From sequence record PQ850613.1: 64,000 nucleotides of DNA. The stretch is one strand, 5' to 3'. Numbering within the stretch: the first letter of the stretch is position 1; every line of letters starts with the position of its first letter. This stretch comes from Escherichia phage KarlSchell_Bas89. The notes beneath the pieces were generated by a model, which was not told where the DNA came from, made no database searches, and saw only the letters and a list, made by a program, of their open reading frames with translations. Shown here piece after piece: positions 30,577 through 34,594 of this stretch. Position numbers and translations under genes: made by a program.

Positions 30577-30794
30577 TTCACAACCTTAAACTTAAATGTT
30601 GTTGGGTGGTAGTAGTGTAACCTGTTTATTGTGTGCTTAGTCTCATGATACAGAACACAAGAGTGGCACATTGAATGGTGCAAACAGGTTACTGGATTAC
30701 GTTTGAAATTGGCAATAAGCTTCCGCTTGTTACAGAAGCTACATGTTTTGTGTAAGTCCATTAACTCTCCAGAGTTTTCCTTAGAGCTGACCAA
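30573..30794 (-). CDS. Cys/His-rich small protein
   Basis: CSFC ... CLHHSMCHSC. Confidence 0.35.
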   Translation of the reverse strand: MVSSKENSGELMDLHKTCSFCNKRKLIANFKRNPVTCLHHSMCHSCVLYHETKHTINRLHYYHPTTFKFKVVK

Positions 30795-31417
30795 GAAATT
30801 GGGTAGAGTTTAGCCATCTCTTCATCTAATGACTGAGCAAACAGTCGAACTTCATACTGAGCATGGGATGATAGTCGTTGACGACACAATTCAAACCAGC
30901 CATACAAGCTACCAGTCCAGACCCACTCAGTAATCATTCCCTGAGGAAGAACAAAGCGAGCTTGCTCTGGTGCAATAAATTCAATTAGCTTATCATACGC
31001 TGCCAGTGAAGCTTCGTATGCATTATTGATCAGCATTAATGCTTCGGCTCGTTCTCCGTTGACAAGCTGTGTCCCTGAACCTGCATGGAGGTCCGAAGGT
31101 CTCGCAAAAATCTCTTTAGGGATGAAGACTTCAACTGCTCCATCTTTATACCGCCGGGACATTTCGTTCCACGAGAACCCAATTTGGTGTTTTCCAAGCT
31201 GTCTCGCAATTGCGATAGGTGCTTTGCATCGGAAACTGACTTGTGGGTGTCGGAATGGCGTAACATGCTTCTCTCTTGCGAGAAAGTTGATGAGACGTTC
31301 ATCGCGATCATTTAAATCACCTTCGCGGGTTACGCCAAAGGAAACTCGAGCTGCGTTTACTACGCTACGATCACTTCCCATAGCTTCGATTAATGTTGCT
31401 TGTAATTGTTCATTCAT
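30761..31417 (-). CDS. thyX: flavin-dependent thymidylate synthase ThyX-like
   Basis: KAPIAIARQ ... SWNEMSRRY and LSSHAQYE match ThyX signature regions as recalled; canonical RHR appears as KHQ. Confidence 0.75.
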   Translation of the reverse strand: MNEQLQATLIEAMGSDRSVVNAARVSFGVTREGDLNDRDERLINFLAREKHVTPFRHPQVSFRCKAPIAIARQLGKHQIGFSWNEMSRRYKDGAVEVFIPKEIFARPSDLHAGSGTQLVNGERAEALMLINNAYEASLAAYDKLIEFIAPEQARFVLPQGMITEWVWTGSLYGWFELCRQRLSSHAQYEVRLFAQSLDEEMAKLYPISWSALRKTLES

Positions 31418-31436: not shown

Positions 31437-31712
31437 TTATTTAATATCCAAAGCTGTTACTAAGAAAGCTTTCAGGTTTGCTTCAGTCTGCATACCAGAT
31501 AAGCTATAATGTGCTCCGCTGTTACGATTAGGCACAATGAAAGCAGGAATGCTTCGTACACCGTACTCGATAGCTCGCTCACGACCGTTGCCTTCGAGGA
31601 TATTAACCTCTTCAACTTCTAGGTTAAGCTCTTCAGCTAATTTGTTGAGGGTAGGAGCCATTGCTTTGCAAGGGGCACATTGATTACTATAAAACTTAAT
31701 AATTTTGTTCAT
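31437..31712 (-). CDS. thioredoxin/glutaredoxin-like protein
   Basis: CAPC active-site-like motif near N-terminus, about 90 aa. Confidence 0.55.
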   Translation of the reverse strand: MNKIIKFYSNQCAPCKAMAPTLNKLAEELNLEVEEVNILEGNGRERAIEYGVRSIPAFIVPNRNSGAHYSLSGMQTEANLKAFLVTALDIK

Positions 31713-31719
31713 AAAAACC

Positions 31720-31974
31720 TTAAGCAGTGATCAGGTGGAGGGTAAATGGGATGACCACAGAGATAATAACCCAAGCAACAGATGCGATTTGGATTTCATT
31801 CTTCTTGTCCGGTGTCTCTTCAATAAGTTTCTTGCTGCCATAATAAACACCGCCGCCAATGAGAAGTGCCCAAATACTCCAAATGGTTGCTGATAACATA
31901 TTCAATTCCTTATAAACAAGTTCGCCCCACCTCGGATTAGGAGACAGGGCGGAGGTTTTAGTATGAGACGTCAC
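31720..31974 (-). CDS. small membrane protein (two predicted TM helices; holin-like)
   Basis: Hydrophobic segments IWSIWALLIGGGVYY and VAWVIISVVIPFTLHLI. Confidence 0.3.
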   Translation of the reverse strand: MTSHTKTSALSPNPRWGELVYKELNMLSATIWSIWALLIGGGVYYGSKKLIEETPDKKNEIQIASVAWVIISVVIPFTLHLITA

Positions 31975-32545
31975 TGGAGTGTGACATGTTACTTTTAACG
32001 AAGTAGCAATACTTGCCTAACCCTTCGTTGATTTCTTGGAGCATGCTCTGGTCAACTGGATACTCGCTCAAACATCCATCGAACTCATCCATTTTGTCAA
32101 TCATGCACATTAAAGACATGCACATATCAGAGAGCATACCATCCATATCTAGGTCTGCATTTCCTTCAGAGAACCAAGAGTGTGACAAGTAGTTAGAAGC
32201 AGTTGCATCCACCTTAATACAGTGGAAACGCATACGTTCAGCTATCCGATCACCTGTCTCACGAGCATAATCTTCCAGCTCATCAAACATTCCATGAACA
32301 CCCTGAAACCCTGCACCAGATACGTTCCAGTGATAATTCTTAGCTTTGATATGCAAGAGTTCTAAGTTAGCTTGAATACCGCATAGAATGTGTTCTAGGC
32401 TGTTTCCACTAATCATCCCTTGCATACGCTCTAAACGGGAGATAGAAGAGTCTGTTTCACGTAATACATCACGGAAAGAAGTCTCTTTTGTTAGAGTTGG
32501 TAAGTCGAAAACATTGTGATTAGACATTAGGATTTTCTCCATCAA
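31958..32545 (-). CDS. Dps/ferritin-like protein
   Basis: KNYHWNVSGAGFQGVHGMFDELEDYARETGDRIAERM resembles the Dps signature region. Confidence 0.5.
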   Translation of the reverse strand: MMEKILMSNHNVFDLPTLTKETSFRDVLRETDSSISRLERMQGMISGNSLEHILCGIQANLELLHIKAKNYHWNVSGAGFQGVHGMFDELEDYARETGDRIAERMRFHCIKVDATASNYLSHSWFSEGNADLDMDGMLSDMCMSLMCMIDKMDEFDGCLSEYPVDQSMLQEINEGLGKYCYFVKSNMSHSSDVSY

Positions 32546-32849
32546 GTTCTACTGAGTTCGCAACATTGCGTTCCAGATTTGAGATTACCTGTTGGGTGAT
32601 AACGATGCAGTTCTGTGGGTCAACTGACTTAGAACGTCCCATCTCAGGGTCATACACCTTAACACGTTTTGCTGTAGAACCAGTTACCTGTAACACCTTG
32701 AGAAGATAACCCTGATTCCCGATAGACCATGCAACAACATCACGATTCTTGATGAATCGACCAAGCATATCACGATGGTAGAACTGCTGCATAACCTTTG
32801 ATTTATTAATCTCTTCGGCTGGCGGAGCCACTTTACTCAAATCTAACAT
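32520..32849 (-). CDS. hypothetical protein
   Basis: ORF; TATACATTT (one-mismatch promoter-like 9-mer on minus) about 40 nt upstream. Confidence 0.35.
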   Translation of the reverse strand: MLDLSKVAPPAEEINKSKVMQQFYHRDMLGRFIKNRDVVAWSIGNQGYLLKVLQVTGSTAKRVKVYDPEMGRSKSVDPQNCIVITQQVISNLERNVANSVELDGENPNV

Positions 32850-32921
32850 TTCACTCTCTCCTGTTTAATACAATATTCTTATACTGTATATACATTTGAG
32901 AGTGATCATATCTACTACCAA

Positions 32922-33134
32922 TTAGTAGTAAACATATCCAGAGATATATGAGCCTTTATCCCCACTAAACTCAAACCATCGATGCATGTCAGCACGTTTA
33001 ACCGTACCGACTAGAGCTTTCATATTCTTCTTAGCAATACGAGCCTCTTTACGAGTGTTAAACAGTTTGATATTATCTTTACCTAGATGGTGTCCATCTT
33101 CCCAAACAACACGAACAGCCCACATCTTTTTCAT
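32922..33134 (-). CDS. small basic protein, member of tandem paralog trio
   Basis: MKKMWAVRVVWEDG ... YISGYVYY shared pattern with two neighbours. Confidence 0.45.
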   Translation of the reverse strand: MKKMWAVRVVWEDGHHLGKDNIKLFNTRKEARIAKKNMKALVGTVKRADMHRWFEFSGDKGSYISGYVYY

Positions 33135-33349
33135 TAGTAATGCACCTTTCCGCTGATATAAATACGGCCTGAGGTATACTCATAGCCCTTGAGAATCTTG
33201 ACAGAGGTAAGATATCCAGTGTGTAATTCACTGAACGATTTCTTAAGCCTACGTGCGCCTTCTCGTGTTTTCTGGTAGGTCATGGTCACACCCCCACTTG
33301 TCCACTCTGTTCTAACTAACCAAACTCTTTTCATAAGACCTGCTCTCAT
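33134..33349 (-). CDS. small basic protein, member of tandem paralog trio
   Basis: MKRVWLVRTEW ... IYISGKVHY. Confidence 0.45.
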   Translation of the reverse strand: MRAGLMKRVWLVRTEWTSGGVTMTYQKTREGARRLKKSFSELHTGYLTSVKILKGYEYTSGRIYISGKVHY

Positions 33350-33546
33350 TAGTAGTACACCTTGCTGCCAGCCATGAAAGCCCCTGTCGAGCTTATAATA
33401 ACCTTACTGATAGTAACTTTCTTATGCCGGAAGTATGTCTTCCAGCCCTTTTTACAGATTCGAGCTTCTTGTCGAGTCTTACAAAAGTCAGCCAAAGACA
33501 GCTCTTGGGTTTTGTTATCATAAACACGAACACACCACTTTTTCAT
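33349..33546 (-). CDS. small basic protein, member of tandem paralog trio
   Basis: MKKWCVRVYDNKT ... GSKVYY. Confidence 0.45.
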   Translation of the reverse strand: MKKWCVRVYDNKTQELSLADFCKTRQEARICKKGWKTYFRHKKVTISKVIISSTGAFMAGSKVYY

Positions 33547-34071
33547 TTATCTTTCATCCACATTAAAGGAGAGATGGAGTCTGCTTCTCATAGACTTAGC
33601 TAAAAGTTTTGCCTCTTCGAGAGTTTTCACTCCATATACAGACTCACGTTTACCATCTTTTTGAACAGAGACACAGAACGTCCCACCTTTCTCTTGGTAG
33701 ACATTCTTAATCCCTAGCTTGTTATCAACTCTGGTCTTAGCATTCTGACTATTTTCAGAGTGAGAACACTTTCTCAGGTTAATTTCTTCTAGATTCCCTC
33801 TGTTACCATCAGCGTGATCTATTTGATATTCATCCGATAAATCCTCACCAGTATAAAGAACAAAAAGAATCCTATGATTATGGACACGAACTCCTCCTAA
33901 GGGAATTTGGTAATATCCATCTTTTGTGAGTTTTCCAGCAGGTTTCCCTGCTATATCATTAGCAAATTTACTAGGCTTCCTTTTCCAAGAAAGCCCTGAC
34001 GGGGATGACATGTCTATGTTAAAAAGATCAAACACTTCATCATAGCATATCAGCATGGTTTGTTCCACCAA
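33547..34071 (-). CDS. HNH homing endonuclease with AP2-like domain
   Basis: YQIDHADGNRGNLEEINLRKCSHSENSQN. Confidence 0.75.
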   Translation of the reverse strand: MVEQTMLICYDEVFDLFNIDMSSPSGLSWKRKPSKFANDIAGKPAGKLTKDGYYQIPLGGVRVHNHRILFVLYTGEDLSDEYQIDHADGNRGNLEEINLRKCSHSENSQNAKTRVDNKLGIKNVYQEKGGTFCVSVQKDGKRESVYGVKTLEEAKLLAKSMRSRLHLSFNVDER

Positions 34072-34594
34072 AAGCTTTTGTTGGCCCTTGTTGGTTATTG
34101 TATGAACCTTTAGTTGCGTAACTATCTTCTTCAGAGGAGGAGTGTTTAAAGAACTCCATTTGACCGATACGCATTCCCGGCTTAATTAGCAAAGAGTGAT
34201 GCTGTAGGACGTTCTTGAATTCCATAGTAAGTTGGCTCCCATGCCACCCACCGTCAGCATGACCAGCGTGCATGTGCTCTAAGAAGCAACGACCAACAGT
34301 GGACCGTAACATGAAGTCACAACTAATATTATCTGGCAGGTTGAATGTCTCCACTGTATGAGCCAAGAAGCACTCACCCGGTTTGATAACTAAACCTTCT
34401 TCTGGAATCATAACCTCGTTGAAGTTAGGAGACTCTTTAGCGGAGATATCAACAACCCCATTAGCTGCTCCTTCCATCAGAACACGGTCTCCAATACGAA
34501 CATCAATACTGGAGGAGTTAACAGCTGAGTGAGGTGCATCAATAACACCATCATCGATTAGTTTATGTAATTCCGGACTTCCTAATAAACTCAT
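34040..34594 (-). CDS. dcd: dCTP deaminase-like (dUTPase superfamily)
   Basis: N-terminus and length resemble Dcd; beta-rich, Gly-rich loops. Confidence 0.6.
   Translation of the reverse strand: MSLLGSPELHKLIDDGVIDAPHSAVNSSSIDVRIGDRVLMEGAANGVVDISAKESPNFNEVMIPEEGLVIKPGECFLAHTVETFNLPDNISCDFMLRSTVGRCFLEHMHAGHADGGWHGSQLTMEFKNVLQHHSLLIKPGMRIGQMEFFKHSSSEEDSYATKGSYNNQQGPTKAFGGTNHADML

What the first reader, a model, noticed from the sequence alone, without database searches (positions are those of the whole stretch)
31958..32545. Dps/ferritin-like protein in a virulent phage
The segment KNYHWNVSGAGFQGVHGMFDELEDYARETGDRIAERM resembles the ferroxidase-centre region of Dps proteins as I recall it. Dps-like genes are uncommon in phages and would imply iron or oxidative-stress handling, or DNA compaction, during infection.
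Basis: partly seen in the sequence, partly recalled or inferred. Interest (0 to 1): 0.45.

Follow-up and report, generated by a model that had tools for sequence, protein, structure and literature searches.

The report
Phage Dps mini-ferritin, already annotated
The gene is a genuine Dps-type iron-oxidising "mini-ferritin" with an intact active site, but it is the ortholog of phiEco32 gp67, annotated as a Dps-family protein since 2008 and a core gene of this phage group, so the identification is correct and not new.

Summary

- **Sequence:** Pfam Ferritin scores above its cut-off, PHROG 3636 gives 3e-53, and a clade profile hits solved Dps structures full-length (6.5e-20).
- **Structure:** the AlphaFold core (pLDDT >90) is a four-helix bundle with the short BC helix. 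All top 50 PDB fold hits are Dps (rmsd 1.2 Å to M. smegmatis Dps2).
- **Active site:** all five ferroxidase ligands and the adjacent Trp are invariant in the clade and align exactly with E. coli and Listeria Dps. Full-length dN/dS is about 0.03-0.06.

The window is a phiEco32-like virulent podophage. The gene is 99.5% identical to EP335 ORF69 and 82% to phiEco32 gp67, which was deposited as "member of the Dps family". The literature lists it as a core gene of C3-morphotype podophages. So it is already known, although I found no experimental characterisation.

Added here:
- The protein is strongly acidic and has no basic tail, so the common label "DNA-binding protein" is unsupported.
- Many records mislabel it "integrase".
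- It is the second gene behind the validated middle promoter P68, translationally coupled to a conserved unknown partner, gp68.

The most likely role is iron sequestration and peroxide detoxification during replication.

The parts
31958..32527 (-). Dps-family mini-ferritin CDS (189 aa plus stop). It is the ortholog of EP335 ORF69 (99.5% aa) and phiEco32 gp67 (82% aa).
32237..32332 (-). Ferroxidase-centre segment. Codons for H66 (32330-32332), W67, H78 (32294-32296), D82 (32282-32284), D93 (32249-32251) and E97 (32237-32239).
   Evidence: Codons read directly. Invariant columns. H66, H78 and D93 invariant across 176 Dps relatives, E97 in 173 of 176.
32393..32527 (-). N-terminal extension (residues 1-45), specific to the Gordonclarkvirinae clade. 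Net charge is -2, the conserved motifs are MHNNxFDLP and SxxRLExM, and the structure confidence is low.
   Evidence: It evolves about 3-5 times faster than the core (pN 0.27-0.30 vs 0.07-0.09) but pN stays below pS.
32520..32849 (-). gp68 homolog (109 aa, phrog_10984, unknown function). It is translationally coupled to Dps, forms a conserved gene pair with it in distant C3 podophages, and is predicted to be a small SH3/Tudor/KOW-like beta-barrel.
32905..32932 (-). Sigma70-like promoter upstream of gp68: TTTACT-N16-TATGAT.
   Evidence: SU10 has a sigma70 promoter upstream of CDS68 (PMC4281155).
32887..32897 (-). Phage-sigma (gp36-type) promoter motif AAATGTATATA, a 10/11 match to tAATGTATAtA. 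It is the equivalent of the phiEco32 middle promoter P68.
   Evidence: invariant in 7 phages. P68 is experimentally validated in phiEco32 (PMC4331800; PMC12276001).
31923..31951 (-). Terminator-like hairpin (11 bp, 7 G-C) starting 7 nt after the Dps stop codon.
   Evidence: In relative L005 the stem sequence is replaced but still pairs and is followed by a U-run.
31720..31899 (-). Small hydrophobic protein, 59 aa (phrog_9296, unknown function); looks membrane-embedded by eye, no transmembrane prediction was run. Downstream neighbour of Dps.
31437..31712 (-). Thioredoxin with a CxxC motif (CAPC). Core gene that co-occurs with Dps.
   Evidence: PMC4281155
30761..31417 (-). Flavin-dependent thymidylate synthase ThyX.
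34040..34594 (-). dCTP deaminase, the upstream member of the conserved nucleotide-metabolism module.

Best explanation
The gene encodes a catalytically competent Dps-type mini-ferritin. Shown: it has the Dps fold and the complete inter-subunit ferroxidase ligand set. By homology (inferred), twelve subunits would assemble into a hollow cage about 9 nm across. At each two-fold interface, H66/H78/D82 of one subunit and D93/E97 of its partner would bind two Fe2+, oxidise them (preferentially with H2O2) and deposit the ferric iron inside the cage, so removing both Fenton reagents.

The gene is the second cistron, after the conserved unknown gp68, behind the promoter region equivalent to phiEco32 P68. 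That region carries a sigma70-like promoter and a phage-sigma gp36/gp79-activated promoter, so the protein should be made from the middle phase onward, when phage DNA replicates.

The inferred purpose is to protect replicating phage DNA and the neighbouring redox-sensitive nucleotide-metabolism enzymes (thioredoxin, ThyX) from iron/peroxide damage. This would matter when gp79 has shut off the sigma70- and sigmaS-dependent host transcription that would normally induce the host's own dps and OxyR regulon. The protein is very acidic and lacks a basic tail, so it probably acts as an iron/peroxide sink and does not coat DNA the way E. coli Dps does.
For: Fold and family. Ligands are invariant and in register with E. 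coli and Listeria Dps. K63, equivalent to E. coli K48, is also invariant in the clade. Purifying selection is strong, with full-length dN/dS of 0.03-0.06 for the three pairs where dS could be estimated.

The ortholog is expressed and abundant: SU10 CDS67 gave 6 peptides and 35.8% coverage, the highest peptide count (joint with one early protein) among the listed middle and early gene products (PMC4281155).

Transcription: a sigma70-like promoter and an AAATGTATATA motif, almost invariant upstream of gp68. P68 is validated as gp36-dependent and gp79-activated, and gp79 blocks both sigma70 and sigmaS holoenzymes (PMC12276001; PMC4331800).

Conserved module: dCTP deaminase, Trx, gp68 and ThyX occur together with Dps in Kuravirus, 7-11 and one metagenomic contig; Privateer (no ThyX in the fetched stretch) and the LAh phage (gp68 and ThyX only) show partial sets. 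The gene is a core gene of the five C3 podophages compared in PMC4281155.

No basic tail: pI 4.75, net charge -15, N-tail -2. This resembles L. innocua Dps (net -12), which does not bind DNA according to my own knowledge of the Dps literature.

Also from my own knowledge: host dps is driven by OxyR/sigma70 in growth and by sigmaS in stationary phase; Dps prefers H2O2 as oxidant; ThyX has an H2O2-producing NADPH oxidase side reaction.
Against: No experiment on any C3-podophage Dps was found, so dodecamer assembly, ferroxidase activity and the phenotype are all inferred. Phage 7-11 is reported to lack a gp79 homolog and host shut-off, yet it keeps the Dps gene (PMC8948821). 'Replacing a silenced host response' therefore cannot be the general reason the gene is retained. 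The acidic residues that line the iron-entry pore in E. coli and Listeria Dps are not conserved position for position (alignment). The Pfam match covers only residues 58-101, and the protein scores far below the NCBIfam Dps equivalog cut-offs (34.5 vs 114 bits), so it is a divergent member. Detection in CsCl-purified Privateer virions is not predicted by a purely cytoplasmic role.
Confidence: 0.6

Rival explanations
1. It is mainly a DNA-binding and DNA-condensing protein, as most database records label it. In this view it coats or compacts phage or host DNA during infection, and iron chemistry is secondary.
For: The family name and the annotations ('DNA-binding protein'). E. coli Dps and some other Dps proteins bind DNA (my own knowledge). 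The non-Kuravirus orthologs (Privateer-like, P0028, P0031) have short N-tails with net charge +3. The translationally coupled partner gp68 has an SH3/Tudor/KOW/PWWP-like barrel, a fold that often binds nucleic acids, and could supply DNA binding (weak).
Against: The window protein has pI 4.75 and net charge -15 per subunit. Its 45-residue N-tail is net -2 and its C-tail is -1, with no Lys/Arg cluster. The ferroxidase ligands are invariant under strong purifying selection, which indicates that catalysis is what selection maintains. Many Dps proteins with this charge profile do not bind DNA (my own knowledge).
Confidence: 0.15
2. It is an iron store or iron donor and not a protectant. In this view it buffers and delivers iron to iron-dependent enzymes needed for dNTP synthesis and replication (for example host class I ribonucleotide reductase) during the burst of phage DNA synthesis.
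For: It is embedded in a conserved nucleotide-metabolism module of dCTP deaminase, thioredoxin and ThyX. In Privateer an NrdD-like fragment lies directly downstream. Dps cages can store and release iron (my own knowledge).
Against: The nucleotide-metabolism genes identified in the module (dCTP deaminase, thioredoxin, ThyX) are not known iron enzymes (the rest of the window was not scanned). Dps cages hold at most about 500 Fe and are generally seen as detoxifiers, not supply depots (my own knowledge). There is no direct evidence.
Confidence: 0.15
3. It is a virion-associated component. In this view Dps cages are packaged in, or bound to, the elongated C3 capsid, for example to protect packaged DNA or to act on entry.
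For: The Dps ortholog was detected by mass spectrometry in CsCl-purified Privateer virions (PMC7881722) and in concentrated SU10 preparations. It is a core gene restricted to the C3-morphotype podophages.
Against: The SU10 preparation also contained many clearly non-structural proteins (DNA polymerase, thioredoxin, sigma factor, PhoH), so carry-over of abundant soluble proteins is likely. The gene lies in the replication and nucleotide-metabolism middle cluster, not the late structural cluster. A stable 250-kDa cage can co-purify with virions. No quantitative data are available. By my own estimate, a 9-nm dodecamer could not pass through a podophage tail channel.
Confidence: 0.08
4. It is an integrase, as at least 14 of the 60 GenBank records listed annotate the orthologous gene.
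For: Only the database labels (P0015 'integrase [Escherichia phage IME267]').
Against: At E <= 10 the only Pfam hit is Ferritin, with no recombinase domain. P0015 itself carries PF00210. The fold is a Dps four-helix bundle. At 189 aa it is too small for a tyrosine or serine recombinase.
Confidence: 0.01

Closest known systems
phiEco32 gp67 (ABY52868.1) and EP335 ORF69 (AVZ45147.1), PHROG 3636: the C3-podophage Dps
   Same: Direct orthologs, at 82% and 99.5% aa identity, in the same position between gp68 and the small hydrophobic protein/thioredoxin/ThyX and behind the same promoter region. phiEco32 gp67 is annotated 'DNA-binding protein, member of the Dps family'.
   Different: Nothing substantive. 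The window's copy differs from EP335 ORF69 by one residue in 189. None of these orthologs has been characterised biochemically.
Mycobacterium smegmatis Dps2 (PDB 2z90/4m35) and Bacillus anthracis Dlp-2 (1jig): the closest solved structures
   Same: Four-helix bundle with a BC helix, rmsd 1.2-2.1 A, 25-27% identity, and identical ferroxidase ligand positions.
   Different: The phage protein has a 45-residue net-acidic N-terminal extension, about 10% Cys+Met (6 Cys, 14 Met, against a median of 4.2% in 138 other Dps), and a more negative net charge. It is phage-encoded and was not found in the one-genome-per-species bacterial collection scanned.
E. coli Dps (host protein, PDB 1dps)
   Same: Same family and same five ligands plus Trp, in register.
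   Different: Only about 20% identical, so this is not a recent capture from the host. It scores below the NCBIfam equivalog cut-off. It lacks the Lys-rich N-terminus that E. coli Dps uses for DNA binding (the mechanism is from my own knowledge).
Listeria innocua Dps/ferritin (PDB 1qgh)
   Same: An acidic (net -12), tail-less Dps that acts as an iron/peroxide detoxifier without binding DNA (my own knowledge). The ligands are in register. This is the best functional analogy.
   Different: About 20% identity, no long N-terminal extension, no Cys.
Dps genes of other phage lineages: Lactobacillus myophages (Kyrkou 2019), 'Gratiaviridae' and other gut phages (Benler 2021), Streptomyces, Campylobacter and Clostridium phages
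   Same: Phage-borne Dps proposed to lower iron and ROS toxicity during infection, often near DNA-metabolism genes.
   Different: These appear to be separate lineages: the reference Dps queries did not retrieve the Escherichia Kuravirus copies, and the window protein retrieved only C3-type podophages. Benler et al. wrote that Dps-like enzymes had been seen in only seven Lactobacillus phages, overlooking the C3 podophages.

Membership tests
Dps (DNA protection during starvation) mini-ferritin family, Pfam PF00210 / IPR002177 | Significant sequence or profile similarity over the Dps domain | tested here: met
   Pfam 33.7 bits against GA 24.5, though only residues 58-101 align. phmmer against PDB Dps covers residues 47-180 at 1e-10. 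The clade profile matches Dlp-2 at 6.5e-20 over profile positions 38-171.
Dps mini-ferritin family | Four-helix bundle with a short extra helix in the long B-C loop | tested here: met
   AF2 model with pLDDT above 90 over residues 44-179; helices at 44-68, 74-101, 110-115 (BC), 128-153 and 157-179. The top 50 Foldseek PDB hits are all Dps, with TM (target) 0.73-0.90.
Dps mini-ferritin family | Inter-subunit ferroxidase ligands (two His plus Asp/Glu from one subunit, Asp plus Glu from the two-fold partner) and the adjacent conserved Trp | tested here: met
   H66, H78, D82, D93, E97 and W67 align with Ec H51/H63/D67/D78/E82/W52 and Li H31/H43/D47/D58/E62/W32. They are invariant in the phage clade. 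Across 176 relatives H66, H78 and D93 are invariant, E97 is in 173 and W67 in 174; position 82 varies between D, E and Q family-wide. The codons were verified by eye.
Dps mini-ferritin family | Assembly into a 12-subunit hollow cage with 23 symmetry | not testable with these tools
   Only monomer prediction is available. The inference rests on monomer fold similarity alone.
Dps mini-ferritin family | Fe2+ oxidation by H2O2/O2 and formation of an iron core | not testable with these tools
   This needs biochemistry. No published assay of a C3-podophage Dps was found.
Dps mini-ferritin family | Acidic residues lining the three-fold 'ferritin-like' iron-entry pore | tested here: inconclusive
   In alignment A1, Listeria D121/D126/D130 align with C/P/S in the window protein. 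Nearby acidic residues (E154, D159, E165) are conserved in the clade, but alignment of this segment is uncertain.
DNA-binding Dps subclass (E. coli type) | Lys/Arg-rich flexible N- or C-terminal tail that mediates DNA binding | tested here: not met
   N-tail (45 aa) net -2, C-tail net -1, whole protein net -15, pI 4.75. This is not a defining feature of the Dps family as a whole.
E. coli-type Dps ortholog (NCBIfam NF006975 equivalog) | Score above the curated equivalog cut-off | tested here: not met
   34.5 bits against a cut-off of 114, and about 20% identity to E. coli Dps.
DPSL / bacterioferritin-like (intra-subunit di-iron site) | E...ExxH...E...ExxH ligands within one four-helix bundle | tested here: not met
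   No ExxH motif occurs in helix B or D of the sequence (read directly). The ligand pattern and the best structural matches are canonical Dps. The definition of the DPSL signature is from my own knowledge.
Phage integrase (tyrosine or serine recombinase), as many records annotate it | Recombinase catalytic domain | tested here: not met
   At E <= 10 the only Pfam hit is Ferritin. The fold is Dps. The 'integrase' of phage IME267 (P0015) carries PF00210.

The most novel reading that the evidence does not exclude
gp68 and Dps may form a conserved two-protein module specific to C3-morphotype podophages. In this reading the small SH3/Tudor-like gp68 tethers the highly acidic Dps cage to DNA or to the procapsid/virion, so that an iron-oxidising nanocage becomes physically associated with phage DNA or particles. 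That would explain its detection in CsCl-purified Privateer virions. It would be a virus-adapted use of a mini-ferritin, distinct from the bacterial starvation response.
Probability: 0.1. Interest if true: 0.6.

Novelty: already known. Interest (0 to 1): 0.2.

Why it matters
As an identification it adds nothing new, because the gene has been labelled Dps-family in phiEco32 since 2008 and sits in PHROG 3636.

It still matters in three modest ways:
- No phage Dps of this group has been tested in the literature I could search. Yet it is a core, strongly constrained, abundantly made protein expressed from a structurally characterised promoter. That makes it a tractable model for asking why a strictly lytic phage needs its own iron/peroxide sink.
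- The routine label "DNA-binding protein" is not supported by the sequence.
- A sizeable fraction of GenBank records call this gene "integrase". Such an error could wrongly flag therapeutic Kuravirus candidates as temperate.

Tried and rejected
1. The integrase annotation is rejected.

2. A DPSL/bacterioferritin-type site is rejected: there are no ExxH motifs and the ligands are the canonical inter-subunit set.

3. Recent capture of the host dps is rejected: identity to E. coli Dps is about 20%. A pattern-based scan of 185,579 species genomes found no close cellular relative. The best hit was 39% on a 568-bp contig, followed by actinobacterial Dps at 26-31%. The scan depends on two peptide patterns, so it is not exhaustive.

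4. The function of gp68 could not be determined. The AF2 model is only pLDDT 63, and Foldseek gave no hit at E <= 1e-3, only generic Tudor/PWWP/KOW/SH3-like barrels.

5. The dN/dS rows for L005 and L006 are artefacts. My start-codon filter failed and mis-extracted those sequences, so I discarded them.

6. An exact search for TAATGTAT missed the P68-equivalent site because the site here reads AAATGTATATA. It was found by reading and aligning the intergenic region.

7. The thermodynamic signal of the 3' hairpin is weak against shuffles (z = -1.21). Its support comes from positional conservation and the replaced stem in L005.

8. The Privateer supplements held no spectral counts for Dps, so virion stoichiometry could not be assessed.

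9. A literature search for 'phiEco32' plus 'gp67' found nothing. The original 2008 phiEco32 paper did not turn up in any search and was not read.

10. Cys/Met richness as a metal site: most of the Met and Cys in helix 128-153 align with hydrophobic core positions of other Dps, so I do not read it as a binding motif.
Full report
**The observation**

The quoted peptide is residues 63-99 of the protein.

The biologically likely start is the ATG at 32527, giving 189 aa:
- It is preceded by GGAG about 10 nt upstream.
- It overlaps the stop codon of the upstream gene (ATGTCTAA).
- It agrees with the N-termini of all homologs (MHNNVFDLP...) and with the annotation of EP335 ORF69.

**Identity of the window**

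The 2.5-kb neighbourhood matches 98 phage records, 95 of them named Escherichia or Shigella phages and those listed all phiEco32-like. The protein is 99.5% identical to ORF69 of Escherichia phage EP335 (Gordonclarkvirinae, Nieuwekanaalvirus) and 82% identical to gp67 of phiEco32.

The phiEco32 GenBank record of 2008 already describes gp67 as "DNA-binding protein; member of the Dps family". The protein falls in PHROG 3636 at E 3e-53.

The SU10 paper lists this gene (CDS67), together with thioredoxin (CDS65) and CDS68, among the few genes shared by all five C3-morphotype podophages then sequenced (PMC4281155). The Privateer paper notes the same family in Proteus and Kuravirus phages and states that its function is unverified (PMC7881722). 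The identification is therefore correct but not new.

**Testing the Dps assignment**

- **Sequence.** Pfam Ferritin scores 33.7 bits against a gathering cut-off of 24.5, although only residues 58-101 align. phmmer against PDB sequences aligns residues 47-180 with M. smegmatis Dps2 at 1e-10. A profile of 21 clade members hits B. anthracis Dlp-2 at 6.5e-20, and almost all of the 60 listed matches are Dps proteins, most matched over most of their length.
- **Structure.** An AlphaFold2 model built on that alignment has mean pLDDT 81.7, and above 90 over residues 44-179. It shows four long helices plus the short BC-loop helix typical of Dps. All 50 best Foldseek matches in the PDB are Dps proteins. 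MsDps2 superposes at rmsd 1.2 Å over 134 residues.
- **Ligands.** In an alignment with E. coli and L. innocua Dps, the invariant columns include H66, W67, H78, D82, D93 and E97. These coincide with E. coli H51/W52/H63/D67/D78/E82 and Listeria H31/W32/H43/D47/D58/E62. In a 176-sequence alignment of Dps relatives both His and D93 are invariant, E97 is present in 173 and W67 in 174; position 82 varies between D, E and Q across the family. I checked the codons directly in the DNA.
- **Selection.** Full-length dN/dS is 0.034 against EP335, 0.059 against phiEco32 and 0.041 against KBNP1711; against ECBP2 synonymous sites are saturated, with pN 0.128 and pS 0.766.

**What is particular about this clade**

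The clade is small and divergent. In an exhaustive HMMER scan of 1.84 billion representative proteins, only 12 clusters reach E <= 1e-10. A pattern-based scan of one genome for each of 185,579 bacterial and archaeal species found no close cellular relative. The best hit was 39% on a 568-bp contig, followed by actinobacterial Dps at 26-31%.

Identity to the host's own Dps is about 20%, and the protein scores far below the NCBIfam Dps equivalog cut-off (34.5 vs 114 bits). It is not a recent host capture.

Compared with 138 other Dps, the Gordonclarkvirinae proteins differ in three ways:
- They carry an N-terminal extension of about 43-45 residues that is net-acidic (-2).
- They contain about 10% Cys+Met (6 Cys and 14 Met here, against a median of 4.2%).
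- They are strongly acidic overall (pI 4.75, net charge -15 per subunit).

The extension is modelled with low confidence. At the protein level it evolves about 3-5 times faster than the core (pN 0.27-0.30 vs 0.07-0.09), but pN remains below pS. The Privateer/7-11-type orthologs lack it and instead have a short N-tail with net charge +3.

By established knowledge of the family, which I did not test here, DNA binding by E. coli Dps depends on its Lys-rich N-terminus, and acidic tail-less Dps such as the Listeria protein do not bind DNA. The widespread label "DNA-binding protein" is thus unsupported for this protein.

**Genomic and transcriptional context**

The gene lies in a minus-strand cluster in this order:

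| Coordinates | Gene |
|---|---|
| 34040-34594 | dCTP deaminase |
| 33547-34071 | HNH endonuclease |
| 32922-33546 | three small paralogs (phrog_4939) |
| 32520-32849 | gp68 homolog |
| 31958-32527 | Dps |
| 31720-31899 | 59-aa hydrophobic protein |
| 31437-31712 | thioredoxin |
| 30761-31417 | ThyX |

tblastn across the fetched loci shows dCTP deaminase, thioredoxin, gp68, ThyX and Dps together in Kuravirus, 7-11 and one metagenomic contig; Privateer has all but ThyX within the fetched stretch, and the LAh phage shows gp68, Dps and ThyX. gp68 is immediately upstream of Dps in all but the 7-11 type. The Privateer gp68 homolog is 37% identical (E 8e-17).

gp68 is more conserved than Dps (94% vs 82% between the window and phiEco32). 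Its model (pLDDT 63) shows a small five-stranded barrel with only generic Tudor/PWWP/KOW/SH3-like similarity and no significant fold hit.

Upstream of gp68 lies a sigma70-like promoter, TTTACT-N16-TATGAT (32932..32905). Eight bases downstream of its -10 element lies AAATGTATATA (32897..32887), a 10/11 match to the phiEco32 gp36-dependent motif tAATGTATAtA. The -10 element and the motif are almost invariant in seven phages.

In phiEco32 the promoter before gene 68 (P68) is experimentally established as gp36-dependent. It is stimulated about 3-fold by gp79 and was used for a cryo-EM open complex. The same study reports that gp79 inhibits both sigma70 and sigmaS holoenzymes (PMC4331800; PMC12276001). 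SU10 has a good sigma70 promoter at the same place, at the head of the middle-gene cluster.

Seven nucleotides after the Dps stop codon lies an 11-bp hairpin (31951..31923). It is conserved in position. In one relative (L005) it is replaced by a different stem followed by a U-run. Its folding energy is unremarkable against shuffles (z = -1.21).

The SU10 ortholog is clearly expressed, with 6 peptides and 35.8% coverage. That is the highest peptide count among the middle-gene products.

**Mechanism**

Shown: the protein has the Dps fold and a complete, conserved ferroxidase ligand set, is under strong constraint, is expressed in a close relative, and sits behind a validated middle promoter.

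Inferred from homology: it forms a dodecameric cage and oxidises Fe2+ at the two-fold interfaces, preferentially with H2O2, storing the Fe3+ inside.

Inferred physiological role: it removes the Fenton reagents while phage DNA replicates. At that stage, in gp79-encoding phages, the host can no longer induce dps or the OxyR regulon, because these depend on sigma70 and sigmaS (my own knowledge). The neighbouring thioredoxin points to redox maintenance. ThyX also has a known H2O2-generating oxidase side reaction (my own knowledge).

The main weakness of the shut-off argument is phage 7-11. It reportedly lacks gp79 and host shut-off but keeps the Dps gene.

**Rivals**

- A DNA-coating role is disfavoured by charge.
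- An iron-donor role is possible but has no specific support.
- Virion association is suggested by detection in CsCl-purified Privateer particles. However, the SU10 preparation contained many non-structural proteins, and no quantitative data could be found.
- "Integrase", the label on at least 14 of the 60 records listed, is refuted.

**How common Dps is in phages**

The window protein finds 131 of 50,697 phage records, all C3-type podophages or relatives. Listeria and E. coli Dps queries find another roughly 150 records, mostly Streptomyces (95), Lactobacillus, Campylobacter and Clostridium phages. Dps genes have also been discussed for Lactobacillus phages and for gut "Gratiaviridae". Dps is thus rare overall, at roughly 0.5% of records, but it recurs in several phage lineages.

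**Verdict**

The feature is already known at the annotation level. The open questions are biochemical (cage formation, activity, DNA binding) and physiological (why a lytic phage keeps it, what gp68 does, and whether it is virion-associated).

Interest is low to moderate, at 0.2. The most novel reading not excluded is a gp68-Dps module that tethers the cage to DNA or to virions (probability about 0.1).

Noticed in passing
window 32520-32849 (-): The gp68 homolog (109 aa, phrog_10984, no Pfam hit) is translationally coupled to Dps. It is more conserved than Dps (94% vs 82% to phiEco32) and lies next to Dps in distant C3 podophages (Privateer 37% identity, E 8e-17). It is predicted to be a small SH3/Tudor/KOW-like beta-barrel, and its function is unknown.
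   Followed up: partly
orthologs of window 31958-32527 in public records (e.g. IME267, IMEP8, EcoN5, ES17, DE5, EC.W2-6): At least 14 of the 60 records listed annotate this Dps gene as 'integrase' or 'putative integrase'. The proteins carry PF00210 and no recombinase domain. This propagated misannotation could wrongly mark lytic Kuravirus therapy candidates as temperate.
   Followed up: partly
window 33547-34594 (-); L005:2354-3398: The window's dCTP deaminase is only 56-58% identical to the copies in EP335, phiEco32 and KBNP1711, although flanking genes are 91-99% identical to EP335 and KBNP1711. It is 100% identical to the copy in viral contig L005. L005 is the only other locus with the adjacent HNH_3 endonuclease (96% identity). 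This looks like a homing-endonuclease-linked allele cassette.
   Followed up: partly
window 32922-33546 (-): Three tandem paralogous small genes (70, 71 and 65 aa, all phrog_4939, unknown function), each ending in a Y-rich C-terminus. Copy number and divergence vary among relatives.
   Followed up: partly
window 31923-31951 (-): A terminator-like 11-bp hairpin lies right after the Dps stop codon and is conserved in position across Kuraviruses. In L005 the stem is replaced by a different one followed by a U-run. This suggests partial termination or an RNA-stabilising 3' end after gp68-Dps.
   Followed up: partly
window 32912-32928 (-): A short inverted repeat, CTACTA-N5-TAGTAG, lies in the spacer of the sigma70-like promoter upstream of gp68. 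Its right half is invariant in 7 phages. It could be a regulator site or part of the gp36 -35 recognition element. Six-base arms are weak evidence.
   Followed up: no
L003:5398-5694 (Proteus phage Privateer): Directly downstream of the Privateer Dps is a 98-aa ORF annotated as homologous to the anaerobic ribonucleotide reductase NrdD. It may be a stand-alone glycyl-radical 'spare part' domain, which would fit an oxygen-damage theme for the module.
   Followed up: no
window 31958-32527 (-), residues 128-153: The third long helix is unusually rich in Met and Cys (MLSDMCMSLMCMIDKM), and this is conserved in the clade. Most of these positions align with hydrophobic core residues of other Dps, so it is probably core substitution and not a metal-binding site. 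The 6 Cys per subunit are still atypical for Dps.
   Followed up: partly
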